From the IMG/VR virus record IMGVR_UViG_3300027896_000025: a stretch of 20,354 nt of DNA, one strand, 5' to 3'. A program made the position numbers and the translations under genes. Shown here one piece after another: positions 3,011 to 19,408 of this stretch. Each line of letters starts with the position of its first letter. Within the stretch, counting starts at the first letter, position 1. The notes beneath the pieces were generated by a model that ran no database searches, was not told the DNA's origin, and worked only from the letters and a program-made list of their open reading frames with translations. The DNA comes from an uncultured virus (IMG/VR IMGVR_UViG_3300027896_000025). Lineage: Duplodnaviria; Heunggongvirae; Uroviricota; Caudoviricetes.

Positions 3011-3159
3011 ATCAGGATTCATTTATGCGTCAACTTCGAAATATCTTTATACGAAGTAACAATTATGAAGGAGATTGTTTGGACGATTTATGATCAAGGC
3101 ATTCAATATTTGGATTGTGTTGTAATATTTTGGGCGAGTTGAAAGTTGAGGAGTTGTGA
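3007..3159 (+). pseudogene. EEL-family micro-ORF 1, interrupted by in-frame TGA at 3091-3093
   Basis: GTG 3007 frame reads MNQDSFMRQLRNIFIRSNNYEGDCLDDL*SRHSIFGLCCNILGELKVEEL*; 51 codons, both ends coupled by GTGA overlaps. Confidence 0.55.
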
Positions 3160-3314
3160 ATACTTTGGATTTAAGAGATCACTTCATTGGAATTCTAAGA
3201 TCAAAATACAATTCAAATGGAGATTTTATTAAAATACCAAGTTTAGGAAGGTATCACTGTATTAAAAATATTAGTGATTGTATAGAAACCGAAATAAGAA
3301 AGGATGAAATATGA
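3156..3314 (+). CDS. EEL-family micro-ORF 2 (52 aa, ends RKDEI)
   Basis: MNTLDLRDHFIGILRSKY...ETEIRKDEI; GTGA/ATGA overlaps at both ends. Confidence 0.7.
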   Translation: MNTLDLRDHFIGILRSKYNSNGDFIKIPSLGRYHCIKNISDCIETEIRKDEI

Positions 3315-3892
3315 TTGATAAACTAACTAAAGAACAAGAGGCTAAGATTCCAGAGTACGTTGAAAAGTACCGTGAGATCGGTTTGGACACGACTCCTTGC
3401 GACCACGCTAAGGCTGAGGCGGCGATTAAACGAGCGTACAAGTACCTGAAGTTAAAGGAGCCGACGTTCGTTTGGGCTGACTCTCCACGGGCAGGTGCTA
3501 TCATCGCCGCACGGTTAGCTAAGAGTTCGGATGATATCACTACTGAAGATTTACGTGCTCAAGCCGGTTCGGCAAACTTCGGATCGTTTGAGGCGTATTG
3601 GGTTGCGTTTTACTCGTACATTGCTCATGAGCTTCCGGTTAAGAAAGACGAGCTGATCGATATCGTTGAAGAGATTGTTAAGAACTGCGGAGTGTACTGG
3701 ACTTTTGAAAACGTGGTTGTGATGACTGAGAAGCCAGTAGCAGTTCATTTCGATAAGAACGGCCAGTTGGATAACCCGGACGGTTTGGCTTTGGAATACA
3801 AAGACGGAACTGGTATTTTCCGATTTAACGGCGTTCGTTACAAGTCGTTAATCGACATGGAGATCAATAACGCATGTGTGGACAAAAAGTAA
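3311..3892 (+). CDS. DUF6745-like domain protein
   Basis: LTKEQEAKIPEY..KY...AEAAIKRAY...P.FVWADSP N-terminus; CGVYWTFENVVVMTEKP..VHFD..GQLDNPDGLALEYKDG..IFRFNGV C-terminus. Confidence 0.75.
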   Translation: MIDKLTKEQEAKIPEYVEKYREIGLDTTPCDHAKAEAAIKRAYKYLKLKEPTFVWADSPRAGAIIAARLAKSSDDITTEDLRAQAGSANFGSFEAYWVAFYSYIAHELPVKKDELIDIVEEIVKNCGVYWTFENVVVMTEKPVAVHFDKNGQLDNPDGLALEYKDGTGIFRFNGVRYKSLIDMEINNACVDKK

Positions 3893-4020
3893 TTTTTACA
3901 TTCGAATCGTTATTTAAGTGGAAAGATGTGATTTCATATGAATTAGAAAACAACCTTAGTAATGTCGTAGAGATGAATTACTTAAGTAGTTTTGTTTATA
4001 ATGATCTGAAGGAGTTATGA
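3874..4020 (+). CDS. EEL-family micro-ORF 3 (48 aa, ends DLKEL)
   Basis: MCGQKVIFTFESLFKWKDVISYELENNLSNVVEMNYLSSFVYNDLKEL; ATGA overlap downstream. Confidence 0.65.
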   Translation: MCGQKVIFTFESLFKWKDVISYELENNLSNVVEMNYLSSFVYNDLKEL

Positions 4021-4244
4021 AAAAGAAATCTAACTTTAAAAACTGTCAAGCTGTTGTCTGGATTCCAGAATGGTTAAAAAGATTTCCGATTAAGAATCAT
4101 CCTCTGAAGTTTGGTGAAGTAGTGTACTTCTTAGGCGAAATTTCAAATTGTTCCGGACATTGTATCGTTGTTAAATTTAACGGACAAGTAATTCCGATGC
4201 TTCATACGGCAGATTTCAGATTGGCAAAGGAAAACGAACTATGA
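4017..4244 (+). CDS. hypothetical protein (75 aa, ends KENEL)
   Basis: Coupled at both ends; ends in xEL but is longer and compositionally unlike the micro-ORFs. Confidence 0.7.
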   Translation: MKKKSNFKNCQAVVWIPEWLKRFPIKNHPLKFGEVVYFLGEISNCSGHCIVVKFNGQVIPMLHTADFRLAKENEL

Positions 4245-5290
4245 ACATAACTGAGATTAAAAAAACAGTCCCGATTCTTTTGAAATCCAAAGTCGTCCCG
4301 TTCCTTTGGGGATCTCAAGGAGTTGGTAAAACTCAAGTAATGAAACAAATCGCGGCTGATTTAAAACTTGGATTCATTCATCTCCACTTGGCGACGCAGG
4401 AAGTTGGCGATTTAGTTGGATTACTAGTTCACAACGAAGACGGGACAGTCAGGCACGCTAGACCCGAGTGGTTTCCGACCGAAGGCGAAGGGATTGTTTT
4501 TTTGGATGAAGCTAATCGTGCTCATCCGGACGTGTTACAAGCTATGTACTCATTTATTACTGAGGGGACAATTCATAGACATAAACTACCTGAAGGTTGG
4601 TCAATTGTCGCAGCAGGGAATTACCAAAACGAATCGTTTCAAGTGACTGATACTTCTGACTCAGCGTGGTTATCCCGATTCTGTCACCTGGATTTTACCC
4701 CGTCTGTTGAGGAGTTTACGGGTTACGTTGAAGATCAAGGGCTAGACACAATTTCATCGTTCGTTAAAAACCATCCTGAGATGTTAGAAACGAAACCAAA
4801 AGAACGTCCGGTGTTCGAAATGTTAGTCCCGAATCGTCGCGGGTTGTGCGACATGATTGGACGGTTGGAACAGTTTTCGGACCTGGACGATGTGAGATAC
4901 GAAGTGTATTCTGGAATAATTGGAAAGATAGCAGCAGCATCGTATTTATCCTATAAGAAACAAGCGGTTAAACGGTTGTCAGGTAAACAAATCTTGAAGG
5001 ATTTCAGTAAAGTAAAGGCTGAAGTCTTAGAGATTTCGAATCCGAATAACGCACGGTTTGATTTACTAGATTCAGCGGTTGAGGAAATCATGCTTCTGCT
5101 CCCAAAGAAACCGTTGACTGATAAACAGATTGATAACTTCCAAGAGTTCTTGTTGACGATTCCTTTGGAGTTAGGACTAAAAGTTATTAATCGGATTCAT
5201 AAACTCTCATGGCCGCAGAGAAACGTTATCTTGAATGATAAGAAATTCGTAGAGAGATTTAAGAACGTGAAGTTGAAGGAGAGGAAATGA
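4241..5290 (+). CDS. MoxR-like / AAA_5-type AAA+ ATPase
   Basis: Walker A GSQGVGKT, Walker B VFLDE-ANRA, sensor AAGN, arginine finger AWLSRF. Confidence 0.9.
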   Translation: MNITEIKKTVPILLKSKVVPFLWGSQGVGKTQVMKQIAADLKLGFIHLHLATQEVGDLVGLLVHNEDGTVRHARPEWFPTEGEGIVFLDEANRAHPDVLQAMYSFITEGTIHRHKLPEGWSIVAAGNYQNESFQVTDTSDSAWLSRFCHLDFTPSVEEFTGYVEDQGLDTISSFVKNHPEMLETKPKERPVFEMLVPNRRGLCDMIGRLEQFSDLDDVRYEVYSGIIGKIAAASYLSYKKQAVKRLSGKQILKDFSKVKAEVLEISNPNNARFDLLDSAVEEIMLLLPKKPLTDKQIDNFQEFLLTIPLELGLKVINRIHKLSWPQRNVILNDKKFVERFKNVKLKERK

Positions 5291-5439
5291 ATCCTGTAAG
5301 AAAACCTGGGCACTTTATTAGTGATCAATTTGATGATCAAATTACCGAAGGACTTGGAATGAAATTAGCTGAGGAAATGAATTATGAAACTTTACATTGG
5401 GATTTAGAATATCAATTAAATTGTATTGAGGAAGTATGA
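5287..5439 (+). CDS. EEL-family micro-ORF 4 (50 aa, ends CIEEV)
   Basis: MNPVRKPGHFISDQFDDQITEGLGMKLAEEMNYETLHWDLEYQLNCIEEV; ATGA overlaps at both ends. Confidence 0.75.
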   Translation: MNPVRKPGHFISDQFDDQITEGLGMKLAEEMNYETLHWDLEYQLNCIEEV

Positions 5440-5597
5440 ATATTCGAATCAATCCTGATTTTGGAATTTACGGTTGGAGCGATCAACAAATTGGTAACAT
5501 GCCTTTTTTCAATCAGTTATTTGATAAATTCTTTGAACTTGATAGCCCAAGGATGTTACTTCAAGATCAATTTCGAACAGATGAGGAAATTCTGTGA
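5436..5597 (+). CDS. EEL-family micro-ORF 5 (53 aa, ends DEEIL)
   Basis: MNIRINPDFGIYGWSDQQIG...QDQFRTDEEIL; ATGA and GTGA overlaps. Confidence 0.7.
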   Translation: MNIRINPDFGIYGWSDQQIGNMPFFNQLFDKFFELDSPRMLLQDQFRTDEEIL

Positions 5598-6721
5598 ACA
5601 CGATCGAAACAACAATCAAATCGCTTCTCGATCACAAACCGTTTTACGCTCATTTCTTCTTGCAATGTAGAATTATTTACGACATGCCCGGAGTTCCGAC
5701 CGCAGCAGCTTCGATGACTCAATCAGGCCCGATCCTGATCTTTAACCGTGAGTTCTTAAAGGATCAACCGATTAGTAAAGTCGAAGGAGTAATTGAGCAT
5801 GAAATACTACACATCATGTTTGAGCACACTTCCCACATGAAACGGAAAGAGTTGAATCCAAAGATCAGGAACATCGCAATGGATTGCTCGATCAACCAGT
5901 ACATCCAAGATCTCCCAGACGGTTGTATTCGATTAGATGAACTTAATAAACAGTTGAAACTAAAGTTAGCACCGGAAGAGACTTGGGAGTACTACCATTA
6001 CAAACTCATGGAAAAAGCTGAAGAACTAAAATCTCAGCAGGATTTTGACGTTCATGGAGTTGATACCGGTGAAGGAGATGAGAAAGATGGAAACGGTAAA
6101 GCTGGTAAAGAAATCTCAGCCGAAACTCTTATAGGAATCATCGACAAAGCAGTTACGGATTCGGCTGGAAATCTTCCCAGTGTTGTCCAAAAGATTTGGG
6201 GGACAATGCGACGGGATTCTGTCATTCCTTGGAAGCAAGTTTTGGCGAACTTCATCTCATCCGCTATTAGCAACTCCACGCTCGCAACTAGAAAACGTCC
6301 TAACCGTAGATTTGGATTAGATCAACCAGGACGGAAAAAGAAACGGGAGTTGACGCTAGGAGTTTGCGTTGATTCATCCGGTTCAATCTCTGACGAACAG
6401 TTTCAAATGTTCTTGAATGAAATTACTAGGATAACTCCGAATTGTCGAACAACGTACGTTATCGACGCCGACTGTCAAGTCAACGGAGTTCAGACTTTAG
6501 ACAAGTACAAAAAGTTGAAATGGGAAAGAAAAGGTTGTGGCGGAACGGCGTATCAACCGGCGATCGATGAATGTGTAAAGTTGCGATGTGACGCTGTAGT
6601 GTACTTCGGCGACATGGATTCGGCGGATGAACCAAAGAATCCTGGAGTTCCATTCCTTTGGATTGTTACTGGAGAACAACAACCGCCTGGGAAGTTTGGT
6701 AAAGTGGTGAGGTTGAAATGA
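5594..6721 (+). CDS. DUF2201-type putative metallopeptidase + vWA domain protein
   Basis: HExxH (HEILH), NIAMDCSIN; MIDAS DSSGS, GGT, YFGD; follows the AAA+ ATPase as is usual for this pair. Confidence 0.88.
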   Translation: MNTIETTIKSLLDHKPFYAHFFLQCRIIYDMPGVPTAAASMTQSGPILIFNREFLKDQPISKVEGVIEHEILHIMFEHTSHMKRKELNPKIRNIAMDCSINQYIQDLPDGCIRLDELNKQLKLKLAPEETWEYYHYKLMEKAEELKSQQDFDVHGVDTGEGDEKDGNGKAGKEISAETLIGIIDKAVTDSAGNLPSVVQKIWGTMRRDSVIPWKQVLANFISSAISNSTLATRKRPNRRFGLDQPGRKKKRELTLGVCVDSSGSISDEQFQMFLNEITRITPNCRTTYVIDADCQVNGVQTLDKYKKLKWERKGCGGTAYQPAIDECVKLRCDAVVYFGDMDSADEPKNPGVPFLWIVTGEQQPPGKFGKVVRLK

Positions 6722-6861
6722 TTCTAATGGAGATGATAATACATCATTTTAAATTGAAACATATGCCAGTTTCCTTTCATGAAGACTTTAATCATAATAT
6801 CTGGATGAAATACCAACTTCAAAGAAATTTAGAAAGTCAGTTACTTTGGGAAGAACTATGA
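6718..6861 (+). CDS. EEL-family micro-ORF 6 (47 aa, ends LLWEEL)
   Basis: MILMEMIIHHFKLKH...KYQLQRNLESQLLWEEL; ATGA overlaps. Confidence 0.7.
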   Translation: MILMEMIIHHFKLKHMPVSFHEDFNHNIWMKYQLQRNLESQLLWEEL

Positions 6862-7005
6862 AACGAATTGATTTCGACGGATTATTTTTTAATGGACTTA
6901 GTACTCTTTGGGGTAGAAATTCAAACGAACTGTTTATAGATATTTATTATTTGTCAGAATTAGTTGTAAACTTGGATAGAGAAATACTTTGGGACGAATT
7001 ATGAA
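6842..7005 (+). repeat. imperfect 21-bp direct repeat at consecutive micro-ORF ends
   Basis: TACTTTGGGAAGAACTATGAA (6842-6862) vs TACTTTGGGACGAATTATGAA (6985-7005), 19/21 identical. Confidence 0.8.
6858..7004 (+). CDS. EEL-family micro-ORF 7 (48 aa, ends ILWDEL)
   Basis: MKRIDFDGLFFNGLSTLWG...VVNLDREILWDEL; ATGA overlaps. Confidence 0.7.
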   Translation: MKRIDFDGLFFNGLSTLWGRNSNELFIDIYYLSELVVNLDREILWDEL

Positions 7006-7183
7006 TTCTGGTGAACAAATCAACTCTCAATTATTTAACGAGATAGAGCCAAGACTGAAAGATTGTATAACTAAAAAACTTTATAGCGATGTAAGATACG
7101 ATCTTAGCGACAAGTTATTTTTATTTCGTGTGTTTGGAATGTTTAGTTCGTTAAGTCATTCATTGAAACAGGAGGAATTATGA
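7001..7183 (+). CDS. EEL-family micro-ORF 8 (60 aa, ends KQEEL)
   Basis: Start at ATG 7001 via ATGA overlap; hydrophobic residue every 4th position. Confidence 0.75.
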   Translation: MNSGEQINSQLFNEIEPRLKDCITKKLYSDVRYDLSDKLFLFRVFGMFSSLSHSLKQEEL

Positions 7184-7230
7184 TAGAGATAGCGGTGTTT
7201 GTTTTACTAGCTTTTTTTATTACAAAGTGA
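7180..7230 (+). CDS. putative 16-aa hydrophobic peptide MIEIAVFVLLAFFITK
   Basis: GGAGG SD, ATGA overlap; links micro-ORF 8 to the protease gene. Confidence 0.4.
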   Translation: MIEIAVFVLLAFFITK

Positions 7231-7934
7231 TGGACGATATGAAGTACCTATCAGTAGTGATGTTTGCCTTAATCTTAACAATCTTCGGAAGCTGCGCCGT
7301 TCCGCATTCTAAAGCCGACGACCGGATTCGAGTCGCGGTGATTGACACGGGAGTTGATTACAGATACATTCCAAAGTCGAAGGTTTGCGGATACTACGAT
7401 CTAACTGGGGAAGGTAAAATTGATCCGACAAAGCACGGAACTTTGGTCTCAGGATTAATCCTTCGAGAATCTCACGACGCTCCAATTTGTTTGGTTTTAG
7501 TAAAATGGTACTCAGCCAAAAACTCCAAGGAACGATTAAAAGATAATGTTATCGCAGCTTTGAAGATCGTTTTACGTCAACACGTTCAGTACTTAAACAT
7601 CTCCCAAGATGGAGGATTTAACAGCCCAGAGGAACGATCTCTCTTACAACAGATTTTGAATCAAGGAGTAGTCGTTGCAGTTTCGGCTGGAAATTACGGT
7701 GAAGATGAATCTATTCAGTGCGACACGTTTCCAGCATGTTACACTTTAAAAGGCAAGTTCTTCGTCGTCGGAGCTACTAACGAAGACGGATTGCGCTGGC
7801 ATCTTAGTAACTACGGTGGACCGATAAAGTCATGGGCACCTGGCGAACATCAATGTTACAAGGGGATCTGTCAGTCGGGAACTTCGTTTTCATCTCCGAA
7901 TTTTTTGGGAAAGTACATTGGAGAAGTTCAATGA
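7227..7934 (+). CDS. subtilisin-like (S8) serine protease, exported / putative lipoprotein
   Basis: Triad VAVIDTG, HGTLVSG, SGTSFSSP; oxyanion SAGN; signal peptide ending FGS-C; start could be 7227, 7230 or 7239. Confidence 0.88.
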   Translation: MMDDMKYLSVVMFALILTIFGSCAVPHSKADDRIRVAVIDTGVDYRYIPKSKVCGYYDLTGEGKIDPTKHGTLVSGLILRESHDAPICLVLVKWYSAKNSKERLKDNVIAALKIVLRQHVQYLNISQDGGFNSPEERSLLQQILNQGVVVAVSAGNYGEDESIQCDTFPACYTLKGKFFVVGATNEDGLRWHLSNYGGPIKSWAPGEHQCYKGICQSGTSFSSPNFLGKYIGEVQ

Positions 7935-8083
7935 ACAGAGTAGTTTGGACAAGTAATAAAGATCCAATCTTTAAAGAATTAGTACATTATAGAAAGGAGT
8001 ATTTGGAAATAAATAGATACATAATAGGTCACGATATAATCTGTTTTTTAGTTGGTGAATACTTACAGACTGAGGAGTTATGA
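7931..8083 (+). CDS. EEL-family micro-ORF 9 (50 aa, MNRVVW...LQTEEL)
   Basis: ATGA overlaps at both ends; start moved to 7931. Confidence 0.75.
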   Translation: MNRVVWTSNKDPIFKELVHYRKEYLEINRYIIGHDIICFLVGEYLQTEEL

Positions 8084-8247
8084 AAGTAGTTTGGAGTTAT
8101 TCAGAAGATCTGTTATTTGATAAGTTATTATTTAAATACAAAGATAAGATGGGGTATTTGAGAGATACAATCGTTGGTTCACTAGAAGGTCAAATTGGAG
8201 ATCTTAGATCTGAAGTACTACGGTTGATATTTAATGAGGAGATATGA
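8080..8247 (+). CDS. EEL-family micro-ORF 10 (55 aa, MKVVW...IFNEEI)
   Basis: Hand-translated; ATGA overlaps; N-terminus resembles micro-ORF 9. Confidence 0.75.
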   Translation: MKVVWSYSEDLLFDKLLFKYKDKMGYLRDTIVGSLEGQIGDLRSEVLRLIFNEEI

Positions 8248-8429
8248 ATCCTGATCAACAAATTCAGAAGTTTTTTGATACAGAACTTTACGATGGGTTA
8301 ATAATTCAGTACGGCGAATCACGATTTGAAGAGATTTATAAAAAGTTTACTAATCAGATGAGAACCGTTAAACAGATTTATTTGACAGAGTTTGAGTTAA
8401 CTGTGGAAATGACTAAGGACGAAGTATGA
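8244..8429 (+). CDS. EEL-family micro-ORF 11 (61 aa, ends TKDEV)
   Basis: ORF track; ATGA overlaps. Confidence 0.75.
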   Translation: MNPDQQIQKFFDTELYDGLIIQYGESRFEEIYKKFTNQMRTVKQIYLTEFELTVEMTKDEV

Positions 8430-8576
8430 AAGAACTGAATACTAAACTTTATCTCTTATTGAAAAATAATACCGGATTTAGATTCAGAGATGTGAATTGG
8501 TTTTCACAACTGCACATTTTGAATTTTCAAATTAAAGATGAATTACACACTGAATTAGCTAAGGACGAAGTATGAA
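8413..8576 (+). repeat. perfect 18-bp direct repeat flanking micro-ORF 12
   Basis: CTAAGGACGAAGTATGAA at 8413-8430 and 8559-8576. Confidence 0.9.
8426..8575 (+). CDS. EEL-family micro-ORF 12 (49 aa, ends AKDEV)
   Basis: MKELNTKLYLLLKNNTGF...LNFQIKDELHTELAKDEV; 43 G+C in 150 nt by hand count. Confidence 0.75.
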   Translation: MKELNTKLYLLLKNNTGFRFRDVNWFSQLHILNFQIKDELHTELAKDEV

Positions 8577-9463: not shown

Positions 9464-9531
9464 TTTTAATAGCTGAAATAATATTTTTTGGTGGAATTCT
9501 AATCGCCGGGGTGTTGTTACTAAGTGACTGA
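9460..9531 (+). CDS. putative 23-aa membrane peptide MILIAEIIFFGGILIAGVLLLSD
   Basis: ATGA overlap; entirely hydrophobic. Confidence 0.45.
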   Translation: MILIAEIIFFGGILIAGVLLLSD

Positions 9532-9706
9532 TTGGTTCTGCTGTGTAGCGTCAGGGATGATGCTCACAGCCCTCCTTTACGCTGACTCACAGTTACATTC
9601 TGTGTACTTAAAGTTCCTTGAGATGCTATTTTTATCACTCTGGTTATCATCCGCTGATCGATTGTTAAGAAGGTGGAACCGTGGTTCTCGATCCAAATCT
9701 CTTTAA
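9524..9706 (+). CDS. small putative membrane protein
   Basis: Two hydrophobic segments and a basic tail. Confidence 0.5.
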   Translation: MTDWFCCVASGMMLTALLYADSQLHSVYLKFLEMLFLSLWLSSADRLLRRWNRGSRSKSL

Positions 9707-9932
9707 AGCGTCTGTGCCATTCATTAAACTCCTGTACGATAAAGAGATTCAGAAATCTCCACAACACGAAGTAATAACTTCAATTTCGCTAGTAAGTTAC
9801 GTTCCATTAGTCGCCGTAGCTCTTTGGGTGAAGAAGTTGTACGGTGCGACGCCAGAACTTGACGCTAAGATACCAGTACTCCTAGAGTTTTATAAGTACG
9901 ATTCTGTCCTTGACATTTCCGACGATAAGTAG
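9681..9932 (+). CDS. hypothetical protein (83 aa)
   Basis: GTG start after AAGGTGG. Confidence 0.65.
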   Translation: MVLDPNLFKASVPFIKLLYDKEIQKSPQHEVITSISLVSYVPLVAVALWVKKLYGATPELDAKIPVLLEFYKYDSVLDISDDK

Positions 9933-9938
9933 TACACT
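9910..9938 (+). promoter_or_regulatory. sigma70-like promoter, probably giving a leaderless mRNA
   Basis: TTGACA (9910-9915), 17 bp, TACACT (9933-9938); ATG at 9945 sits at the expected +1 and has no SD. Confidence 0.7.
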
Positions 9939-9944
9939 TATTAC

Positions 9945-10112
9945 ATGAAGCTGGGAAAAGTAGTCTGGGATCATAATAATGAAATTTTTTTCCATCGTCT
10001 TGATGATGACTTAAAATTAGAGGAATCTTATTTATTTCTTGAAAGATTCACAGATATCCAAAGTGAAAATTTATTTGTTATTCTTAAGGAAGAAATGGAA
10101 TTTCTAGAATGA
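9945..10112 (+). CDS. EEL-family-related micro-ORF 13 (55 aa, MKLGKVVW...KEEMEFLE)
   Basis: Shares VVW N-terminus with micro-ORFs 9/10; terminal motif diverged; ATGA overlap. Confidence 0.7.
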   Translation: MKLGKVVWDHNNEIFFHRLDDDLKLEESYLFLERFTDIQSENLFVILKEEMEFLE

Positions 10113-10273
10113 AGCCGGGGAAACAAATTCCTCTATTAATTAGTATAGTCAATAATAGTTTAGAACCTGCTTATAATGAGGGAAGATATTATTGGGAAAA
10201 AATTCAGAGACAACTCATTATGAGTGATGAAATGATAGCGCATGTATTAGATTTTATTGGGTACGAGTTATGA
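10109..10273 (+). CDS. EEL-family micro-ORF 14 (54 aa, MKPGKQI...IGYEL)
   Basis: Hand-translated; ATGA overlaps at both ends. Confidence 0.7.
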   Translation: MKPGKQIPLLISIVNNSLEPAYNEGRYYWEKIQRQLIMSDEMIAHVLDFIGYEL

Positions 10274-10703: not shown

Positions 10704-10855
10704 AACTTGCAGAGAAAGCGATAGAAGAATTGATTTACCAATGTAGTATTCTGATATTTTTAAATGATAATCCCAATTTAAATTTACCACAATCTAGAAT
10801 TAATGTTATCACTCGTATTAGAAATCTAATAACAAAAGGGTATTCCGATGTCTAG
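10700..10855 (+). CDS. hypothetical protein (51 aa)
   Basis: ATGA overlap; AT-rich like the adjacent HNH gene. Confidence 0.55.
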   Translation: MKLAEKAIEELIYQCSILIFLNDNPNLNLPQSRINVITRIRNLITKGYSDV

Positions 10856-11489
10856 ACAACTTTCAAAATACAAAACACATTCTAGAAAAAGAAATGGAGA
10901 GATTTCATATTTCCAAAGACTAGAAGGAAAAATTGAAATTGGCCAGATCTTTGATCAGTTAACAGTAATTGAAAAACTTGGTCATGAAAAGAAACAAAGA
11001 ACTACTATTTGGAAATGTCAATGTAATTGTGGAAATATAATTAAGATTCCATCAAGAGTATTGAGATTAAAAACAAGACATCGTAGCTGTGGTTGTCACA
11101 AAGGTAAAAATAATTTTTTCTCTTACTTAAATTGGATCAAATTAAATTACCAAAATAGCGCAAAAAAGCGACAATTAGTGTATACTTTAACAGATAAGGA
11201 ACTCCAATATTTAATAAAATCAAATTGTTATTATTGTGGCTCGAAACCTTCCAACCATATTCAAAATCGAAATCAGAAAAACGACGCTGGTCTTGACTAT
11301 AACGGGATCGATCGATTAAATAATTCAATGGGATATACTAATAATAACTGTGTTCCTTGTTGTAAAGAATGTAATTTTGCCAAATGGAATAAAACTGAAG
11401 AGGATTTTAAAGATTGGATAGATCGTTTAGTTAATTATCAGTTACAGATTTATCCTGAAAAATATCTTGGAGAATCAAATGAAGACTAG
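10848..11489 (+). CDS. HNH endonuclease (putative homing endonuclease), same subfamily as 2028-2588
   Basis: WKCQCNCG...SCGC, CYYCG, NGIDRLNNSMGY..NNCVPCCKECN. Confidence 0.85.
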   Translation: MSRQLSKYKTHSRKRNGEISYFQRLEGKIEIGQIFDQLTVIEKLGHEKKQRTTIWKCQCNCGNIIKIPSRVLRLKTRHRSCGCHKGKNNFFSYLNWIKLNYQNSAKKRQLVYTLTDKELQYLIKSNCYYCGSKPSNHIQNRNQKNDAGLDYNGIDRLNNSMGYTNNNCVPCCKECNFAKWNKTEEDFKDWIDRLVNYQLQIYPEKYLGESNED

Positions 11490-12612
11490 ACGATTATCTC
11501 ATTCATCAGTATCTCTTTTTTCGCAATGTGGAGAAAAATTCCGTTTACACTACGATGAGGGACTTCGTGAAAAAGTAGGGTCTTCTGCACTTCTTTTCGG
11601 ATCTGCTGTTGATAACACTCTGAATGAGTTACTAAAAGATAAACAACGTGAAGATGTTAAAAGCGTTAGTTATTACCAGAATAAATTTGAGAACAATTGG
11701 CTGATTGGTGAGATTAATAAACAAAAGATTGAAATGCCCGAAACTCTCGACGCGACGTACGCCGACTCCGACATGCAGTTTGATGTACTAAACACTACAG
11801 ATATCTCAAGATTAAAAAACTTCTTAATCAAAAATACAATTGAAACTGAAACTGGTAAAAATGACCGAGAATCTGTTGAAAAAACGTACGATAAAATTGC
11901 TGCGATTAAACGAGCAACAGGTATTGAAAACATGTACCAACCGTCAGCCCGATTCGTGAATCTGGCAAACTGGCTTTCCTTGAACCATAAAGGAAAAGCT
12001 ATGATCGAAACGTACTACAACAAGATTCTTCCCAGAATTACTAAAGTACTGTACGTTCAAGAAGTCGTGAATCTAGATAACGAAGAAGGAGATTCTGTAA
12101 TCGGATACGTGGATTTAGTAGCTGAGATTGACGGAGTTGTTCGGATCTTAGATAATAAAACATCTGCGCGTGAATATGATAAAGATTCCGCCAACATCTC
12201 AGCACAATTAGCAATTTATCGAAATGCGCTTCGCGATAGAGTTGATACTCCTCATGTTGGATTCATCGTGATGCGAAAAGGATTGAAACTCAATAAATCA
12301 AAATGCTGTTCAAAATGCGGAAATGATGGAACTGGGAATCGAGCTAGAACTTGTGACAAAGAAATTCGAGGAGAACGTTGTAAAGGAGAATGGATTGAAA
12401 CTGTTTCCCCAGAAGCGATAATTGAAGATTGCTTTGGAACAATAAATGAGTACTTTGAAACTCAAGTGATTGACAATTATGAGAATGTTCTTCATGCCAT
12501 TCGTAGTGAACAATTTTATAAGAACTGGACAGAATGTGTAAAACCGTACGGTCGTTGTCCGTACTACAATATTTGTCACACTGGTAAAGAAGAGAAACTA
12601 ATTAAAGTATGA
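11479..12612 (+). CDS. PD-(D/E)XK nuclease (AddB/Cas4-like exonuclease)
   Basis: LSHSS..LFSQC, GYVDLV...ILDNKTS, QLAIY, C-terminal C......CPY..IC; GGAG SD before ATG 11479. Confidence 0.88.
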   Translation: MKTRRLSHSSVSLFSQCGEKFRLHYDEGLREKVGSSALLFGSAVDNTLNELLKDKQREDVKSVSYYQNKFENNWLIGEINKQKIEMPETLDATYADSDMQFDVLNTTDISRLKNFLIKNTIETETGKNDRESVEKTYDKIAAIKRATGIENMYQPSARFVNLANWLSLNHKGKAMIETYYNKILPRITKVLYVQEVVNLDNEEGDSVIGYVDLVAEIDGVVRILDNKTSAREYDKDSANISAQLAIYRNALRDRVDTPHVGFIVMRKGLKLNKSKCCSKCGNDGTGNRARTCDKEIRGERCKGEWIETVSPEAIIEDCFGTINEYFETQVIDNYENVLHAIRSEQFYKNWTECVKPYGRCPYYNICHTGKEEKLIKV

Positions 12613-12794
12613 AACTGGCAACTAATAATCCTCTCATGAGATTTTTCTGGAATTTAGTTACTCCGATAAATAACTTTGCATTTGATTTTGTTAATCAAGA
12701 CATTCGAATGGATTTACGTTGGGAATTAAATAAAGCGAATCTGTCTGAAACTTACATGAGAGTTAAAGAAATGTTACGCGAGGAAGAATTGTGA
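12609..12794 (+). CDS. EEL-family micro-ORF 15 (61 aa, ends REEEL)
   Basis: ATGA/GTGA overlaps; V-NQD-I-RMD-L-RWE-L tetrad. Confidence 0.75.
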   Translation: MKLATNNPLMRFFWNLVTPINNFAFDFVNQDIRMDLRWELNKANLSETYMRVKEMLREEEL

Positions 12795-13294: not shown

Positions 13295-13969
13295 ATGGCT
13301 ACTCAAATTATTACACAGTTAGTTAAAGTTATGAAGGACGTTGGCGGAGTTGGTAAGGATTCTACTAACTCTCAACAGGGTTATAAATTCCGTGGGATCG
13401 ACGCTTTGTTAAACGCAGTTCATCCGGCGTTGGTAAAGAACGGAGTTGTGATCATTCCTGAAGTTCTTTCGTCACAAGTTGAGTTTCGCGACGTTGTTCG
13501 TTCAAGTGGTAAGCCTGGAACTGATAAACATGTCCAACTTCGCGTGAAATTTACATTCATCGCTGAAGATGGCAGCTCAGTGTTAGCAGTTACAGAAGGT
13601 GAAGGTTTGGATTCTGGTGATAAAGCTACTAACAAAGCGATGAGCGGTGCGCTGAAGTACGCCCTAATACAAACTTTAAGTATTCCGACTGAGGATATGG
13701 AAGACGCAGATCGAACCAGTCCAGTACTCGAAACAAAGATTCAACCTCCATCACAGGAAAAAAGTTTTAAAGCCCCGGTCGCTACCCCCGAAGCACCGGC
13801 GGCTAAGACCGGCGGGTCAGGTGTCCCCTCCCAGACGACTTCAGCACCTAGTAGCAGCAATGCTCCTCGCCGGTCCACTAGTTTCCGTAACCGTGCTCCA
13901 GCAGCACCAGCACCGACTCCAGAAAAAAAGCCTGAAGTTAAGTCCGGCGCGATTGACGAGTGGAGTTGA
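13295..13969 (+). CDS. erf: ERF-family single-strand annealing recombinase
   Basis: KD..N.QQGYKFRGID, GEGLDSGDKATNKAMSGALKYAL; Pro/Ala/Ser-rich tail; AAGGAG SD before ATG 13295. Confidence 0.88.
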   Translation: MATQIITQLVKVMKDVGGVGKDSTNSQQGYKFRGIDALLNAVHPALVKNGVVIIPEVLSSQVEFRDVVRSSGKPGTDKHVQLRVKFTFIAEDGSSVLAVTEGEGLDSGDKATNKAMSGALKYALIQTLSIPTEDMEDADRTSPVLETKIQPPSQEKSFKAPVATPEAPAAKTGGSGVPSQTTSAPSSSNAPRRSTSFRNRAPAAPAPTPEKKPEVKSGAIDEWS

Positions 13970-15183: not shown

Positions 15184-15491
15184 ACACCATGAAGATTGGC
15201 GATCCAGTTGAGTTGCGAAGTAGGACGATTCGGTTCTTCATTAAGAACTTGGGAGTTCTGTACTTCAAACCAGAATCTCATGAGTTTGAGATGAAATACC
15301 TTGAGGAAGCTGGAGTTTTGATTTCAGCGTTTCTTAAGAAAGCTGACTCTCCAAAAGGGAAGATTGTTGGCTACGGAGCTAGAATTGATAACACGAAAGA
15401 TAGGTACATTGTAGTAACTGTTAAAAATAAGATGGGAAAAATTGAGTCGTTGGCGCTCCAGGAGCGAGATGTTATTAAACTGAAAAAGTAG
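15180..15491 (+). CDS. hypothetical protein (103 aa)
   Basis: ORF in coupled run. Confidence 0.65.
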   Translation: MNTMKIGDPVELRSRTIRFFIKNLGVLYFKPESHEFEMKYLEEAGVLISAFLKKADSPKGKIVGYGARIDNTKDRYIVVTVKNKMGKIESLALQERDVIKLKK

Positions 15492-15499
15492 GAGGCTCG

Positions 15500-17404
15500 G
15501 TGCTTTACCGAAGAGTTTGTCAAGGTTTATCAGACGGGGGTGTACTGATTCCAGAATCCGAAAATGTAAAAAATTACATTGACGACAAGGATTGTTACGA
15601 ATCACTGTATTTGTACAACGAAGATCAAAAACGCCAGTTCGATGAAACTGGATCAGTTGCAGGAATTCAAGATGTTGTTACTAACCAGTTATACCTAGAT
15701 TTCGATTCAAAAGATAACTTAGAAGCTGCTAAACATGACGCATTAGCAGTTCTTAATCAACTTAATAAATTCAACATTGAACCAGAGATTTCTTTCACCG
15801 GATGTAAAGGTTTTTCTCTAAGAATTCCTTTAGATCAGTACATCTCTGTTTCAGAGTTCAAAACAGCAGTGTTTAATCTGGCTGGAGATCTCACCACTTT
15901 CGATCGAGTAGTAAATAATCCTAGCCGTATCATTCGAGTTCTAAATACTAAGCATCAAGATTCTGGACTTTACAAACTCCAAATCACAGAGCAGGAACTT
16001 CGCGAGGCGACGATTGAAGACATTTTCCATTGGGCTGAGACAAAGGGCGAACCGTTCGACGTTCCAGCTGTGAAACTCCCTGAGTTTTTGAAGGTTAAGG
16101 AACTTCCAAAGCCTTCAGTTCCAGTACAAATCCTTCCACTGGATTTCGCCAACAAACCAAAGTTTCTTTCGAATTGTAGATGGGCACTCCAAAATGGAAT
16201 GTTTAAGGAAGGTCAACGATCGACAGCGTTGTTGTGCCTTGCTTCAACGTACAAAAACTTAGGCTACGATCAAGAGATCGTTTACCGAATGTTGAAGGGA
16301 GTTTCAGAGTTACAAGCTCAGAGAAACAACCAGGAACGATTTCCCGACGAAGAGATTTATAACAACATCGTCGTTCAAGTGTTTAACGAATCTTGGAAAA
16401 ATGGTCAGTATTCCTGCCGCGAACCTGGGAACTTTCTGTACAATTACTGTCAGGGATTAGGCCATCATAAATGTAATCATCAAGTCGATGATCAGATGAA
16501 GCCCACGAGTCTGGATGAAGTTCATGATTCATTCAAACACTTCGTAACTCACATTGAAGAAAACACTGTTCTGACAGGGATTAAAGCGATTGACGAGAAC
16601 TTCTTTCTAACAACAGGTAGTAACGTTTTGATCTTAGGTGCGGCGGCTTCTGGTAAAACAGCATTAGCTTTGAATATTCTAAATAACACTTCGAAACAAG
16701 GAATCAAGTCAGTCTTCGCATCGTTAGACATGGCACGTAACAGAATGTTTGAGAAAGTAATGTACAAAATCACGGGACTTCCACGCGAAGAGTTGTACCA
16801 TCGATTTCAAATGGATCAAGAAGGTCCACTTATGGATACTCTAAAAAAAGAATTCGGTAACGTGTATTTCTTTAATAAATCCTGCCCGACTGTTCAGGAT
16901 CTTCGCGAATACATTTTAATGTGTCAGGAAACTTCCGGTGAACGAATTAAGTTAGTAATGGTTGATTACTTCGAACGAGTTACTAGTGAAGTCTCCGACG
17001 ATACAGCAGCTTCTAAACGAGTTGCTGGCGAACTCCAAGATTTAGTAAACGATTTGGACGTTTGTTTGATCACATTAGTACAACCAAACAAAGCGTCGAT
17101 CTTTGGCGGTCCCGACGCTCCAATTTACAACTACACCGCGATCAAAGGATCAAGTTTCGTTTACCAAGCCGGTCGCCAGATTCTGAGTATTTGGAGACCG
17201 TTTGCGACGCCAGAATTGAAGGCGAATGATCATTTCTTACAACTAGCGATTTTGAAAAACGATCTTGGTGAGATGAGCGAGTATGTTTTTGGTTGGAATG
17301 GTAAACGTGGCGACATTTACGAGTTGGCAGACCATCAGATTGAAGAGTTTGAAGAACTGTTAGCGAAAAAAGAACGTGAGAAAAAAGTAAAGGATGGATT
17401 TTAA
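15500..17404 (+). CDS. bifunctional primase (AEP/PrimPol-type) - DnaB-like SF4 helicase
   Basis: LYLDFD, SFTGCKGF, RIIRV.NTKH; PriCT-like GQRS.AL; Walker A GAAASGKT, SLDM, Walker B VMVDY; GGAGG SD. Confidence 0.85.
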   Translation: MLYRRVCQGLSDGGVLIPESENVKNYIDDKDCYESLYLYNEDQKRQFDETGSVAGIQDVVTNQLYLDFDSKDNLEAAKHDALAVLNQLNKFNIEPEISFTGCKGFSLRIPLDQYISVSEFKTAVFNLAGDLTTFDRVVNNPSRIIRVLNTKHQDSGLYKLQITEQELREATIEDIFHWAETKGEPFDVPAVKLPEFLKVKELPKPSVPVQILPLDFANKPKFLSNCRWALQNGMFKEGQRSTALLCLASTYKNLGYDQEIVYRMLKGVSELQAQRNNQERFPDEEIYNNIVVQVFNESWKNGQYSCREPGNFLYNYCQGLGHHKCNHQVDDQMKPTSLDEVHDSFKHFVTHIEENTVLTGIKAIDENFFLTTGSNVLILGAAASGKTALALNILNNTSKQGIKSVFASLDMARNRMFEKVMYKITGLPREELYHRFQMDQEGPLMDTLKKEFGNVYFFNKSCPTVQDLREYILMCQETSGERIKLVMVDYFERVTSEVSDDTAASKRVAGELQDLVNDLDVCLITLVQPNKASIFGGPDAPIYNYTAIKGSSFVYQAGRQILSIWRPFATPELKANDHFLQLAILKNDLGEMSEYVFGWNGKRGDIYELADHQIEEFEELLAKKEREKKVKDGF

Positions 17405-17587
17405 ATGATTAATAACATTAAGAAACTAGAGAAGTACTTGGCTCAGGTTACTGAGGCGTTAAACAACCCAGTTCCTGAGAAACACAAACTTCATGAACAT
17501 TCGTACTTTGATCACATGAAGAACGAGTTTGAAAGAACGTCGAAGAAGCTTGAAGCTTTGAAACTGGCGATGCCGTCGAAGAAGTAA
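17405..17587 (+). CDS. small helical hypothetical protein
   Basis: Abuts the helicase stop. Confidence 0.65.
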   Translation: MINNIKKLEKYLAQVTEALNNPVPEKHKLHEHSYFDHMKNEFERTSKKLEALKLAMPSKK

Positions 17588-17589
17588 CA

Positions 17590-18096
17590 ATGTCTAAGAC
17601 TTTTACCATTACTTCCAAAACTCATGGATTGTTCAATGTTATTGTTGACGATGAGGATTTTGAACGAGTAATGAAATACAATTGGTCAATCTCAAAAAAT
17701 GGTAATTATTTTAGAGCTGAAACTAGAACAAGTGAAAATAAATTAATGCGGCTTCATCGATTTATTCTGGGATTAAAACAAGATGATCGAAGAGAAATTG
17801 ATCATAAAAATCGTAATCCAATGGATAACAGAAAAGAAAATCTAAGAATCGCGACTAGACAACAAAATGCTCGAAATATGAAATGTAAAGTTCACCCAAA
17901 TAAAACAGGATTCATTGGAGTTTATAGAAATAACGGTAAAGGAAAATATCGAGCTTGTATCTCGATTGATGATAAAACATTTCATATTCCAGGAAATTAT
18001 AATACTGCTAAAGAAGCAGCTTTTGCTAGGGATCGCTATGCCTTAAGAATTGCTGGCGAATTTGCTGTACTAAATTTTGAGGATAAAGATGTTTAG
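17590..18096 (+). CDS. HNH-AP2 homing endonuclease
   Basis: IVDDED, LHRFI, IDHKNRNPMDNRKENLR, AP2 domain TGFIGV...YRACI...AKEAAFARD...GEFAVLNF. Confidence 0.9.
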   Translation: MSKTFTITSKTHGLFNVIVDDEDFERVMKYNWSISKNGNYFRAETRTSENKLMRLHRFILGLKQDDRREIDHKNRNPMDNRKENLRIATRQQNARNMKCKVHPNKTGFIGVYRNNGKGKYRACISIDDKTFHIPGNYNTAKEAAFARDRYALRIAGEFAVLNFEDKDV

Positions 18097-19060
18097 AGAT
18101 GAAGGGCCGAAGTTGCCAATTGAGAACGTAAATATGATACTAAACAATGGAGGTGCCGGGGATATTGTTGCCTGTTTTCCAGTACTTAGCTATGTTTTAA
18201 AGTATCAAACTAACGTCATCCCTCACGTCCACGTTCCAAATTACATGAAGCAGTTTACTAAGACTGTGTTCCCAACGATCAACGTCTACGGATTCACAGA
18301 ATCAAAAACTAAACTTAAGGAGACTGGAAATTTCGCCGCAGCTCAAACGTTACAATCTCACGTCACTAATATGAGAATGCATTCCACCGATTACGCTTTC
18401 ATGACGTTACTTGACAAGCAAGTCCCCGATCAGTACAAAGATTACGTTAAGTACCCAGTTGGATCAGTTGACATCTCAAGATTCAACCTTCCCAAAGACT
18501 TCGTAGTCGTCAATACAGGATTCACAATTCCATCAAAGGCATGGCCCGCTCAAGAGGTTAATAAAGTTGTCAAGTGGTTACTGTCAAAAAACATAACTCC
18601 CGTATTTTTGGGAAAAGACGACATTCAGGAACAAGGAGCAGCGAAACAGCTAGACGATCCATTACAACACGCGAAGTTCGTTGAAGAAGTTCAGTACTCC
18701 TCGGGGATGGATCTCAGAAATCAGACAGATTTATGCGAAGCGACTGAGATTCTTGCGAAATCAAAAGCGTTTGTTGGACTGGACGGTGGATTGTTCCATT
18801 TAGCCGCCTGTACTGACGTTCCGATCGTCGTGGGATTCACGTTTGTCGATCCTCGCCATATCGTACCATTTCGAGATGGGAAGTGGGCTGGTGGAATTGA
18901 GATCGTGTTACCAGATGAATTGTTAAAGTGTACTGGCTGTCAGAGTAATTGGGCGCATTTATACAACTTTTCGTTTCGAACATGCTGGTACGATGATTAC
19001 CTTTGCGCCAAACAGATGACAGGTGAGAAGTTTATTGACAAACTCGAGCAAAAGTTGTAA
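18089..19060 (+). CDS. glycosyltransferase family 9 (ADP-heptose:LPS heptosyltransferase-like)
   Basis: GGAGDIV...P, K.WP, DLRNQTDL.E...IL, FVGLDGGLFHLAA..DVP.V..F; GAGG SD before ATG 18089. Confidence 0.85.
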   Translation: MFRDEGPKLPIENVNMILNNGGAGDIVACFPVLSYVLKYQTNVIPHVHVPNYMKQFTKTVFPTINVYGFTESKTKLKETGNFAAAQTLQSHVTNMRMHSTDYAFMTLLDKQVPDQYKDYVKYPVGSVDISRFNLPKDFVVVNTGFTIPSKAWPAQEVNKVVKWLLSKNITPVFLGKDDIQEQGAAKQLDDPLQHAKFVEEVQYSSGMDLRNQTDLCEATEILAKSKAFVGLDGGLFHLAACTDVPIVVGFTFVDPRHIVPFRDGKWAGGIEIVLPDELLKCTGCQSNWAHLYNFSFRTCWYDDYLCAKQMTGEKFIDKLEQKL

Positions 19061-19063
19061 AAT
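19035..19063 (+). promoter_or_regulatory. candidate sigma70 promoter at GT9 3' end
   Basis: TTGACA (19035-19040), 17 bp, TAAAAT (19058-19063). Confidence 0.55.
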
Positions 19064-19229
19064 GAAGGTTATAAGATTGGAAAGTGATCTCGAAAATATT
19101 ATGGAAGTGAAAATTGATAAAGATTTTAAGTACAATACTAATGAACATCTTAGAAATTGTTTATTAGATTGGTTTGGATTTGATCGTCAAACGGTATTAA
19201 AAAGTGTAATCGCAATAGAGGAACTATGA
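19062..19229 (+). CDS. EEL-family micro-ORF 16 (55 aa, ends AIEEL)
   Basis: ATG 19062 just after GT9 stop; ATGA overlap downstream. Confidence 0.7.
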   Translation: MKVIRLESDLENIMEVKIDKDFKYNTNEHLRNCLLDWFGFDRQTVLKSVIAIEEL

Positions 19230-19408
19230 TTCCATTTAGTAGTTTATCACTTTCATATTTACTAGATGAACGGTTAATCGATCCAAATAACTCAGGGAAG
19301 TTTGATCTTTACGAAATTAAAATGTTCAATGAATACCTTAATCCTATAGATGATGATAACCATTTACAGTTTCAAATCATTCAACAGATTCAGTTAGAAG
19401 AGTTATGA
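19226..19408 (+). CDS. EEL-family micro-ORF 17 (60 aa, ends QLEEL)
   Basis: ATGA overlaps at both ends. Confidence 0.75.
   Translation: MIPFSSLSLSYLLDERLIDPNNSGKFDLYEIKMFNEYLNPIDDDNHLQFQIIQQIQLEEL

What the first reader, a model, noticed from the sequence alone, without database searches (positions are those of the whole stretch)
3148..19408. Terminal motif varies at wobble positions, suggesting a protein-level C-terminal signal rather than only a Shine-Dalgarno
Seen terminal codons: GAG GAG TTG, GAT GAA ATA, GAG GAA GTA, GAA GAA CTA, GAC GAA TTA, GAG GAA TTA, GAG GAG TTA, GAG GAG ATA, GAC GAA GTA (x2), GAA GAA TTG, GAG GAA CTA, GAA GAG TTA, each followed by TGA. Changes fall on third positions (D/E kept) and on the first base of the NTR codon (L/I/V kept). 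Several variants lose GAGG, and where present it is only about 4 nt from the next start. The overlap forces only the last base. Inference: an acidic-acidic-hydrophobic-COOH docking tag read by a common partner (comparable in principle to SSB acidic tails or PDZ/TPR ligands), possibly doubling as a translation-coupling signal.
Basis: partly seen in the sequence, partly recalled or inferred. Interest (0 to 1): 0.75.

Follow-up and report, generated by a model that had tools for sequence, protein, structure and literature searches.

The report
Acidic tails at overlapping gene junctions
In an uncultured freshwater phage about fifteen tiny orphan genes end in Asp/Glu-Glu-Leu/Ile/Val exactly where their stop codon overlaps the next gene's start, so tail and junction behave as one unit, most likely a way of linking translation of neighbouring genes rather than a free docking tag.

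Summary
GANGANNTRTGA occurs 14 times on the + strand, against 0.55 expected. Every copy is an ATGA or GTGA stop/start overlap.

By my own gene calls, 11 of 27 four-base overlaps follow a [DE][DE][LIV] tail. The same motif precedes 1 of 26 other starts. In 24 related phages the counts are 2 of 208 overlaps and 4 of 724 other starts.

GAN always encodes D or E, and NTA always encodes L, I or V.

The tail never occurs with TAA or TAG (0 matches, 2.7 expected). The motif is at chance level before a non-overlapping start. Carriers are only 47-75 aa orphan genes, never the larger or Pfam-annotated genes.

Two carriers are modelled as single helices running to the penultimate residue.

My best reading (0.5): a dual-coded translational-coupling junction, kept in a lineage-specific expansion of mini-genes.

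A peptide-level role stays open (0.3). The cassette is not a stronger Shine-Dalgarno than other junctions, and the T before ATG is unexplained.

Earlier notes of this scan describe similar tails in other phages. No homologues exist to test conservation.

The parts
3303..3314 (+). GAT GAA ATA TGA: tail K-D-E-I of the 52-aa gene 3156-3314. The ATG of the DUF6745 gene (3311) overlaps its stop.
5428..5439 (+). GAG GAA GTA TGA: tail E-E-V of the 50-aa gene 5287-5439, overlapping the start of 5436.
5583..5597 (+). GAG GAA ATT CTG TGA: shifted form (E-E-I-L) with a GTGA overlap onto the DUF2201/VWA gene at 5594.
6850..6861 (+). GAA GAA CTA TGA: tail W-E-E-L of the 47-aa gene 6718-6861.
   Evidence: 38-nt repeat D6 with the next junction
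6993..7004 (+). GAC GAA TTA TGA: tail W-D-E-L of the 48-aa gene 6858-7004, a weak paralogue of 6718-6861 (blastp E = 0.009).
7172..7183 (+). GAG GAA TTA TGA: tail Q-E-E-L of the 60-aa gene 7001-7183. Its ATGA opens only a 16-codon hydrophobic mini-ORF.
7180..7230 (+). 16-codon mini-ORF MIEIAVFVLLAFFITK. Its TGA overlaps GTG 7227 and ATG 7230 of the S8 peptidase gene. It is either a coupling relay or the remnant of a gene.
8072..8083 (+). GAG GAG TTA TGA: tail T-E-E-L of the 50-aa gene 7931-8083 (VVW paralogue group).
8236..8247 (+). GAG GAG ATA TGA: tail N-E-E-I of the 55-aa gene 8080-8247, modelled as a helix over residues 7-54 of 55.
8418..8429 (+). GAC GAA GTA TGA: tail K-D-E-V of the 61-aa gene 8244-8429.
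   Evidence: (repeat D2)
8564..8575 (+). GAC GAA GTA TGA: tail K-D-E-V of the 49-aa gene 8426-8575. The junction matches the previous one over CTAAGGACGAAGTATGAA.
12783..12794 (+). GAA GAA TTG TGA: tail E-E-E-L of the 61-aa gene 12609-12794, with a GTGA overlap. Modelled as a helix over residues 8-60 of 61.
19218..19229 (+). GAG GAA CTA TGA: tail I-E-E-L of the 55-aa gene 19062-19229.
19397..19408 (+). GAA GAG TTA TGA: tail L-E-E-L of the 60-aa gene 19226-19408. This junction has the weakest SD pairing (-2.4 kcal/mol).
3148..3159 (+). GAG GAG TTG TGA in front of GTG 3156. Upstream there is only a 21-codon frame without ATG. This is a cassette copy with no credible protein attached.
3082..3093 (+). 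GAC GAT TTA TGA ending a 28-codon ORF (3007-3093). Its ATGA opens an 11-codon mini-ORF (3090-3125).
4009..4020 (+). AAG GAG TTA TGA: looser tail K-E-L of the 48-aa gene 3874-4020.
4233..4244 (+). AAC GAA CTA TGA: looser tail N-E-L of the 75-aa gene 4017-4244, overlapping the start of the AAA+ gene at 4241.
10262..10273 (+). TAC GAG TTA TGA: looser tail Y-E-L of the 54-aa gene 10109-10273.

Best explanation
The tail and the stop/start overlap form one dual-coded junction unit. The last three sense codons, GA(N) GA(R) N-T-A, plus TGA carry three things on the same bases: a purine Shine-Dalgarno tract for the next gene, that gene's start codon (A/G-TG-A), and the upstream stop.

A ribosome that finishes a mini-gene can therefore restart on the next gene, which is termination-reinitiation coupling.

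The unit is shared because about fifteen fast-evolving orphan mini-genes (47-75 aa, probably all-helical) expanded in this phage lineage alone. This partly happened by tandem duplication. The doubly constrained junction is the part that stayed the same while the gene bodies diverged. On this reading the peptide Asp/Glu-Glu-Leu/Ile/Val is mostly a passenger.

Shown: the motif, its restriction to overlaps, its restriction to small orphan genes, its absence in relatives, and SD-like pairing.

Inferred: coupling itself, origin by duplication, and that the peptide is a passenger.
For: **Tail and overlap are inseparable.**
- GANGANNTRTGA: 14 copies against 0.55 expected.
- The same motif before ATG/GTG not followed by A: 1 copy against 0.84 expected.
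- The same peptide followed by TAA or TAG: 0 copies against 2.7 expected.
- Tails by junction class in the window: 11 of 27 four-base overlaps, 0 of 3 one-base overlaps, 0 of 7 other overlaps, 0 of 14 gaps of 0-12 nt. The single hit among 5 larger gaps is 7183, which is itself an ATGA.

**An SD tract is kept.**
- 10 of 11 tail junctions pair with the anti-SD at -3.9 to -9.4 kcal/mol.
- Copies without G at -6 have G at -9 in 8 of 10. Copies with G at -6 have it in 2 of 7 (Fisher P = 0.058).
- Non-overlapping starts use the same short spacing.

**One cassette has no protein attached.** The copy at 3148-3159 precedes a start with no credible gene upstream.

**Signs of shared descent.**
- Repeat families D2 (25 nt, 4 junctions), D6 (38 nt) and D9.
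- blastp 8080 vs 9945, E = 6e-4; 6718 vs 6858, E = 0.009.
- Pairwise Smith-Waterman z-scores average 0.39 for tail-tail pairs and 0.01 for tail-other pairs.
- In-frame identity of the upstream flanks: 0.323 against 0.277 at -33..-9, and 0.302 against 0.265 at -57..-33. In both cases 0 of 300 permutations reached the observed value. Downstream flanks show no excess.

**Lineage-specific.** The 24 relatives have 2 tails in 208 four-base overlaps, and no recurrent stereotyped tail of their own; the commonest tripeptide recurs only twice within any one locus.

**The tail is not a flexible end.** Both carriers modelled are single helices to the penultimate residue, with pLDDT 78.6 and 87.0.

**Background.** Coupling at ATGA overlaps, with a variable contribution from the SD, is established (PMC6728339; abstract and passages read).
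Against: - The cassette is not a better SD than other junctions. Mean pairing energy is -5.77 kcal/mol for 11 tail junctions, -5.78 for 16 other four-base overlaps and -5.54 for 30 other starts.
- A position model built from the window's other starts predicts only 0.12 such junctions among 27.
- Larger genes (AAA+, VWA, S8, PD-(D/E)XK) overlap their neighbours through quite different sequences. Coupling therefore does not require this cassette.
- T at -1 goes with GAR at -5..-3. The 2x2 counts are 14, 1, 3, 9 (Fisher P = 7.5e-4), with no such link in relatives. T is not enriched at -1 of other starts (0.27). I could show no nucleotide-level reason for it.
- Tail carriers also share hydrophobic residues at -6 (12 of 15) and -10 (11 of 15), against a base rate of 0.41. 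Other small proteins show 4 of 19 and 7 of 19. These positions lie outside the SD.
- A single paralogous family is not demonstrated. In a leave-one-out profile test only 4 of 16 proteins beat all but 7 or fewer of 200 shuffles.
- Several junctions are recent duplicates, so fewer than 14 copies are independent.
Confidence: 0.5

Rival explanations
1. Peptide-level tag. The C-terminal Asp/Glu-Glu-hydrophobic-COOH, with hydrophobic residues at -6 and -10, is selected as a peptide on a set of small early proteins. It is read by a common phage or host partner, or it sets their stability. The overlap merely co-exists with it.
For: - Codon-structured invariance: A-7, G-5, A-4 and T-1 are fixed while -6, -3 and -2 vary. 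This is partly by construction, because I selected the set on the motif.
- GAR at -5..-3 and T at -1 remain where the purine tract has moved upstream, for example TAAGGACGAAGT and TTGGGACGAATT.
- SD strength is not special.
- Larger genes couple without the cassette.
- Extra hydrophobic periodicity lies beyond the SD region.
- Carriers score as coding: 11 of 15 are best in frame, against 50 of 119 spurious ORFs.
- Earlier notes of this scan report acidic-hydrophobic tags on small proteins of other phages. These are unverified leads.
Against: - The tail is never found with TAA or TAG, or apart from an overlap. If tails were independent of junction type, the chance that all 12 small-gene tails fall on four-base overlaps is small. 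This is my own rough estimate from the class counts, not a computed test.
- One cassette copy has no credible protein attached.
- The tail is the end of a predicted long helix, not a flexible tip.
- The SD-shifted examples mostly belong to one repeat family, D2, so they are not independent.
- No partner was identified or tested.
Confidence: 0.3
2. Cis-acting ribosomal signal. The last residues of the nascent chain (acidic, acidic, hydrophobic) or the last codons and tRNAs (GAR, NUA) tune release at UGA. The post-termination ribosome is thereby retained and restarts at the overlapping AUG. On this reading the peptide matters, but only on the ribosome.
For: - It explains why the tail and the overlap never separate.
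- It explains why T at -1 and GAR at -5..-3 are kept without making the SD stronger.
- C-terminal residues and NNA-UGA contexts are known to affect expression and to reflect overlapping starts (PMC7246954, passages read).
Against: - Other four-base overlaps in the same window, and 206 of 208 in relatives, work without it.
- No tool here measures termination or reinitiation.
- I saw no precedent for this particular tripeptide in the papers I read.
Confidence: 0.08
3. Recombination joint. The roughly 12-25 nt junction is kept mainly as a short homology at which mini-genes are duplicated, lost or swapped between co-infecting phages, in the way promoter/stem-loop cassettes flank orphan genes in T4-type phages.
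For: - Adjacent paralogue pairs have near-identical junctions (D2, D6).
- The mini-ORFs at 3090 and 7180, and the split 50-codon frame at 3007-3159, look like remnants left at junctions.
- The carriers are orphans.
- Precedent: PMC2839356 and PMC4122927 (search listing and start of abstracts only).
- Similar claims appear in earlier scan notes (unverified).
Against: - No close relative with the mini-gene region was available, so no gain, loss or swap at a junction was observed.
- The strictly shared core is only about 9 specified bases.
Confidence: 0.1

Closest known systems
Translational coupling by termination-reinitiation at ATGA/TGATG stop-start overlaps, with the SD inside the upstream gene (Huber et al. 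2019, PMC6728339; review PMC12548453)
   Same: Co-directional genes, a 4-nt ATGA or GTGA overlap, and an SD-like purine tract in the last codons of the upstream gene.
   Different: Here one stereotyped codon solution, GAN GAR NTA TGA, recurs 14 times in 20 kb. It occurs only after tiny orphan genes, is no stronger an SD than other junctions, and is absent from related phages. Coupling itself was not measured.
Acidic C-terminal docking tails (bacterial SSB tip, T7 gp2.5 and gp4 tails, T4 clamp-binding C-termini). These names are recalled from memory and from earlier scan notes, not from a call on the proteins.
   Same: Acidic residues followed by a hydrophobic C-terminal residue, shared by several proteins.
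   Different: Only three residues are shared. The tail sits at the end of a predicted helix rather than on a flexible linker. It is never found without the gene overlap. No partner is known.
PeSL regulatory cassettes that flank orphan genes and mediate modular shuffling in T4-type phages (PMC2839356, PMC4122927; listing and abstract starts only)
   Same: A short conserved regulatory sequence at the borders of small, variable orphan genes in a phage early region.
   Different: PeSLs are promoter/terminator stem-loops lying between genes. Here the element lies inside the coding sequence and is a translational joint. Shuffling was not observed here.
Dual-coded C-terminal tails of phage mini-gene arrays noted earlier by this scan (e1-1994549, e1-5815149, e1-6067000, e1-5402055)
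   Same: Many small phage genes end in one short peptide whose codons are the ribosome-binding site and start of the next gene.
   Different: The peptide differs ([DE]E[LIV] here; LENK, LRW, WRLD and K-L-E-x there) and so does the phage. Those notes are unchecked AI reports on other DNA.

Membership tests
Termination-reinitiation coupled gene pairs (ATGA/GTGA overlap) | Co-directional genes whose stop and start codons overlap by 4 nt | tested here: met
   All 14 cassettes are ATGA or GTGA. 27 of the 56 junctions in my gene chain are 4-nt overlaps.
Termination-reinitiation coupled gene pairs (ATGA/GTGA overlap) | SD-like tract in the 3' end of the upstream gene, within about 12 nt of the start | tested here: met
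   10 of 11 tail junctions give -3.9 to -9.4 kcal/mol against a generic anti-SD 9-mer, and one gives -2.4. The host's 16S rRNA is unknown.
Termination-reinitiation coupled gene pairs (ATGA/GTGA overlap) | Downstream translation depends on translation of the upstream gene | not testable with these tools
   This needs a reporter with a premature stop in the upstream gene.
C-terminal docking tag (SSB/T7-type acidic tail, PDZ/TPR ligand) | Tail exposed on a flexible or disordered segment | tested here: not met
   In 2 of 2 models the helix runs to the penultimate residue: H7-54 of 55 at pLDDT 78.6, and H8-60 of 61 at pLDDT 87.0. The alignments were shallow or absent, so this is only moderately reliable.
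C-terminal docking tag (SSB/T7-type acidic tail, PDZ/TPR ligand) | Tail kept as a peptide independently of the neighbouring gene's start | tested here: not met
   There are 0 tails with TAA/TAG (2.7 expected) and 0 at non-overlap junctions. Conservation in homologues could not be tested because the three small-protein queries searched found no relatives.
C-terminal docking tag (SSB/T7-type acidic tail, PDZ/TPR ligand) | A partner that binds the tail | not tested
   I sent no complex prediction. The candidate receptors had no alignments and no specific partner was indicated.
Single paralogous mini-gene family | Sequence similarity beyond the tail among all carriers | tested here: inconclusive
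   A few pairs are related (E = 6e-4 and 0.009). The mean pairwise z is 0.39 against 0.01. The leave-one-out profile is significant for only 4 of 16.

The most novel reading that the evidence does not exclude
The tripeptide is selected as a peptide. About fifteen otherwise unrelated, single-helix early proteins of this phage carry an Asp/Glu-Glu-hydrophobic-COOH end. That end is read either by one common phage or host partner or by the terminating ribosome itself, and the gene overlap is built around it.
Probability: 0.3. Interest if true: 0.7.

Novelty: new member of a known kind. Interest (0 to 1): 0.35.

Why it matters
If the tail is only the protein-side shadow of a coupling joint, this is a clean warning case. 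Shared C-terminal 'tags' on small phage proteins can arise from the ribosome-binding site and start codon of the next gene, and wobble-position variation does not prove selection on the peptide.

It also shows how a phage can string many orphan genes into one translational chain.

If the peptide itself is read, it would be an undescribed short address or ribosome-acting signal on phage early proteins.

My two literature searches aimed at such shared tails listed no paper describing them. I judged this from listings and abstract starts only.

Tried and rejected
**Relatives**
- Isolated phages: megablast of 17 kb found no match. tblastn with the primase-helicase and the AAA+ protein found only matches below 60% identity.
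- IMG/VR with the single protein found none. With an alignment it gave 24 loci at 43-57% identity, but none of the 15 tail carriers has a blastp hit (E <= 1e-3) among their proteins.
- The metagenome scan gave 6 loci, the best at 69% identity on a 4.7-kb contig without the mini-gene region.
- The genome scan gave 4 MAG contigs labelled Bacteroidia, Flavobacteriaceae, Saccharibacteria and Kaiserbacteria. This is not enough to name a host.

**Homologues of the mini-proteins**
- 12609-12794 and 4017-4244 found only themselves.
- The profile of the three VVW proteins found only those three, plus one 1279-aa protein at E = 7e-4.
- The codon-level test across homologues could therefore not be run.

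**Whole genome and runs**
- No whole genome is held for this window.
- One run holds the stretch, a freshwater metagenome that may be the source; no RNA holder is listed. I did not lay reads, because contigs of the source sample would add nothing.

**Other scans**
- The promoter/terminator scan is at or below shuffle level.
- No tRNA and no Rfam family was found.

**Codon-usage frame test**
- My first version was biased by stop codons, so I replaced it.

**Rejected readings**
- Chance.
- A generic by-product of SD plus ATGA in this phage family (2 of 208 in relatives).
- A stronger-than-usual SD.

**Complex prediction**
- Not sent, because there was no indicated partner and no alignments for the receptors.


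Full report
**What the window is.** All credible genes lie on the + strand. Pfam names these:
- an SLT lysozyme (2585-3010)
- DUF6745 (3311-3892)
- an AAA_5 ATPase (4241-5290)
- a DUF2201 metallopeptidase/VWA protein (5594-6721)
- an S8 peptidase (7227-7934)
- a PD-(D/E)XK nuclease (11479-12612)
- an ERF recombinase (13295-13969)
- a DnaB-type primase-helicase (15500-17404)
- an HNH endonuclease (17590-18096)
- a family 9 glycosyltransferase (18089-19060)

Dozens of ORFs of 43-100 codons lie between them. The primase-helicase has many relatives at 45-71% identity on contigs of about 60-95 kb. The window's own protein is on record on an 82,354-bp contig. This is the early/replication region of an uncultured phage. 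The only run holding it is a freshwater metagenome.

GANGANNTRTGA occurs 14 times, all on the + strand, against 0.55 expected; 0 of 100 shuffles reach 14. Twelve copies end ORFs of 47-61 codons. Three more small genes end in K-E-L, N-E-L and Y-E-L, and one ends in E-E-I-L. The tripeptide is rare inside the small proteins (13 of 1858 positions) but ends 12 of 34 of them (P = 6.5e-18).

**Gene calls.** I made them with my own ORF-chain script. The 10 small proteins I looked up are on record with the same starts. With stop codons ignored, 11 of 15 carriers score best in their own frame, against 50 of 119 spurious minus-strand ORFs.

**The wobble argument is not diagnostic.** GAN is always Asp or Glu, and NTA is always Leu, Ile or Val. 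A nucleotide motif GA.GA..TA in this frame therefore looks exactly like a conserved peptide with free third positions. No alternative codon family exists that could tell the two apart.

**Evidence for a junction unit.**
- Tail and overlap never separate. The same nucleotide motif before a start that is not followed by A occurs once (0.84 expected). The same peptide followed by TAA or TAG occurs 0 times (2.7 expected).
- By junction class, tails occur at 11 of 27 four-base overlaps, 0 of 3 one-base overlaps, 0 of 7 other overlaps and 0 of 14 short gaps. The one 'large gap' case, 7183, is itself an ATGA that opens a 16-codon mini-ORF.
- An SD-like tract is kept. Ten of 11 tail junctions pair with a generic anti-SD at -3.9 kcal/mol or better. 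Of the 8 copies without GAGG at -8..-5, 7 have G at -9.
- The short spacing of about 4 nt is also used by non-overlapping starts such as 13295, 14656 and 15500.
- One cassette copy (3148-3159) precedes GTG 3156 with only a 21-codon, ATG-less frame upstream.

**Evidence that it is more than a by-product of SD plus ATGA.**
- In 24 related phages, only 2 of 208 four-base overlaps and 4 of 724 other starts fit the motif. None of those phages has a recurrent stereotyped tail of its own: the commonest tripeptide recurs only twice within any one locus.
- A position model from the window's other starts predicts 0.12 such junctions among 27.
- The cassette is not a stronger SD. The three classes average -5.77, -5.78 and -5.54 kcal/mol.
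- Larger genes overlap their neighbours through other sequences.
- T at -1 goes with GAR at -5..-3 (Fisher P = 7.5e-4), with no such link in relatives.
- Carriers share hydrophobic residues at -6 (12 of 15) and -10 (11 of 15), against a base rate of 0.41.

Something therefore keeps this particular solution on small orphan genes of this lineage.

**Shared descent is the simplest such cause, but it is only partly shown.**
- Repeat families join several junctions: D2 (25 nt, four junctions), D6 (38 nt) and D9.
- 8080 and 9945 (E = 6e-4) and 6718 and 6858 (E = 0.009) are paralogues. 7931 aligns with the first pair.
- Tail-tail pairs have slightly higher alignment z-scores (0.39 against 0.01). The pairs are not independent.
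- Upstream flanks are a little more alike than other gene ends (0 of 300 permutations reach the observed value). Downstream flanks are not. Shared composition could contribute to this.
- A leave-one-out profile supports only 4 of 16.

**Orphans.** The three small-protein queries I searched found nothing outside this phage. None of the 15 carriers has a hit in the relatives' loci.

**Structure.** Two carriers were modelled, and both came out as single long helices reaching the penultimate residue: 55 aa at pLDDT 78.6 with a three-sequence alignment, and 61 aa at pLDDT 87.0 from a single sequence. This is unlike a flexible acidic tip. Models this shallow are only moderately trustworthy.

**Verdict.**
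- Best reading (0.5): a dual-coded translational-coupling joint, kept in a lineage-specific expansion of mini-genes. Coupling at such overlaps is established (PMC6728339, abstract and passages; PMC7246954, passages; PMC12548453, listing and abstract start only).
- A peptide-level tag (0.3), a ribosome-acting tail (0.08) and a recombination joint (0.1) are not excluded.
- Earlier notes of this scan describe both dual-coded tails and acidic-hydrophobic tags in other phages. I used them as leads only.

Noticed in passing
window 7180-7230 and 3090-3125: Two hydrophobic mini-ORFs, MIEIAVFVLLAFFITK (16 aa) and MIKAFNIWIVL (11 aa), open at the ATGA of a tail cassette. The first ends on a TGA that overlaps the S8 peptidase start (GTGATG). 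They are either relay ORFs or remnants of lost genes.
   Followed up: partly
window 3007-3159: A 28-codon ORF ending D-D-L-TGA is followed in the same frame by 21 more codons ending E-E-L-TGA. Together they make a 50-codon frame broken by one in-frame TGA, the size of a typical mini-gene.
   Followed up: partly
window 2028-2588 and 10848-11489: Two paralogous Cys-rich genes of about 190-210 aa (36% identity, E = 3e-32, sharing an 87-nt repeat) have no Pfam hit. Homologues occur in 5-6 of the 24 related loci.
   Followed up: partly
proteins P0055, P0065, P0067, P0070, P0093 (relatives of window 15500-17404): Some relatives of the primase-helicase are about 1000 aa long and carry homing-endonuclease/intein Pfam domains (PF05204, PF05203, PF14528). 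The window's copy has none.
   Followed up: no
window 17393-17404; L025 4001-4012; L026 1033-1044: The primase-helicase ends in ...D-G-F here and in G-G-F and W-G-F in two relatives. By recall, a C-terminal aromatic residue after acidic residues resembles the T7 gp4 tail.
   Followed up: no
window 9945-10112: The third member of the VVW mini-gene group ends K-E-E-M-E-F-L-E. Its E-E-M aligns with the N-E-E-I tail of 8080-8247 and is followed by four extra codons before a new ATGA, as if the junction had moved 12 nt.
   Followed up: partly
window 9464-9944: A 481-nt stretch with only weak GTG-started ORFs and a terminator-like hairpin at 9486-9511. It may be an operon boundary in an otherwise gap-free gene chain.
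   Followed up: no
window 1003-1850 and 7227-7934: Three genes start with lipoprotein-like signal peptides (…LLTGC, …FLSGC, …IFGSC): a weak-PA14-domain protein, a 61-aa protein and the S8 subtilase.
   Followed up: no
L031, L034, L032, L033: Relatives of this phage family sit on contigs binned into Bacteroidia, Flavobacteriaceae, Saccharibacteria and Kaiserbacteria MAGs. The window itself uses clear GGAGG-type ribosome-binding sites, so the host is unresolved.
   Followed up: no
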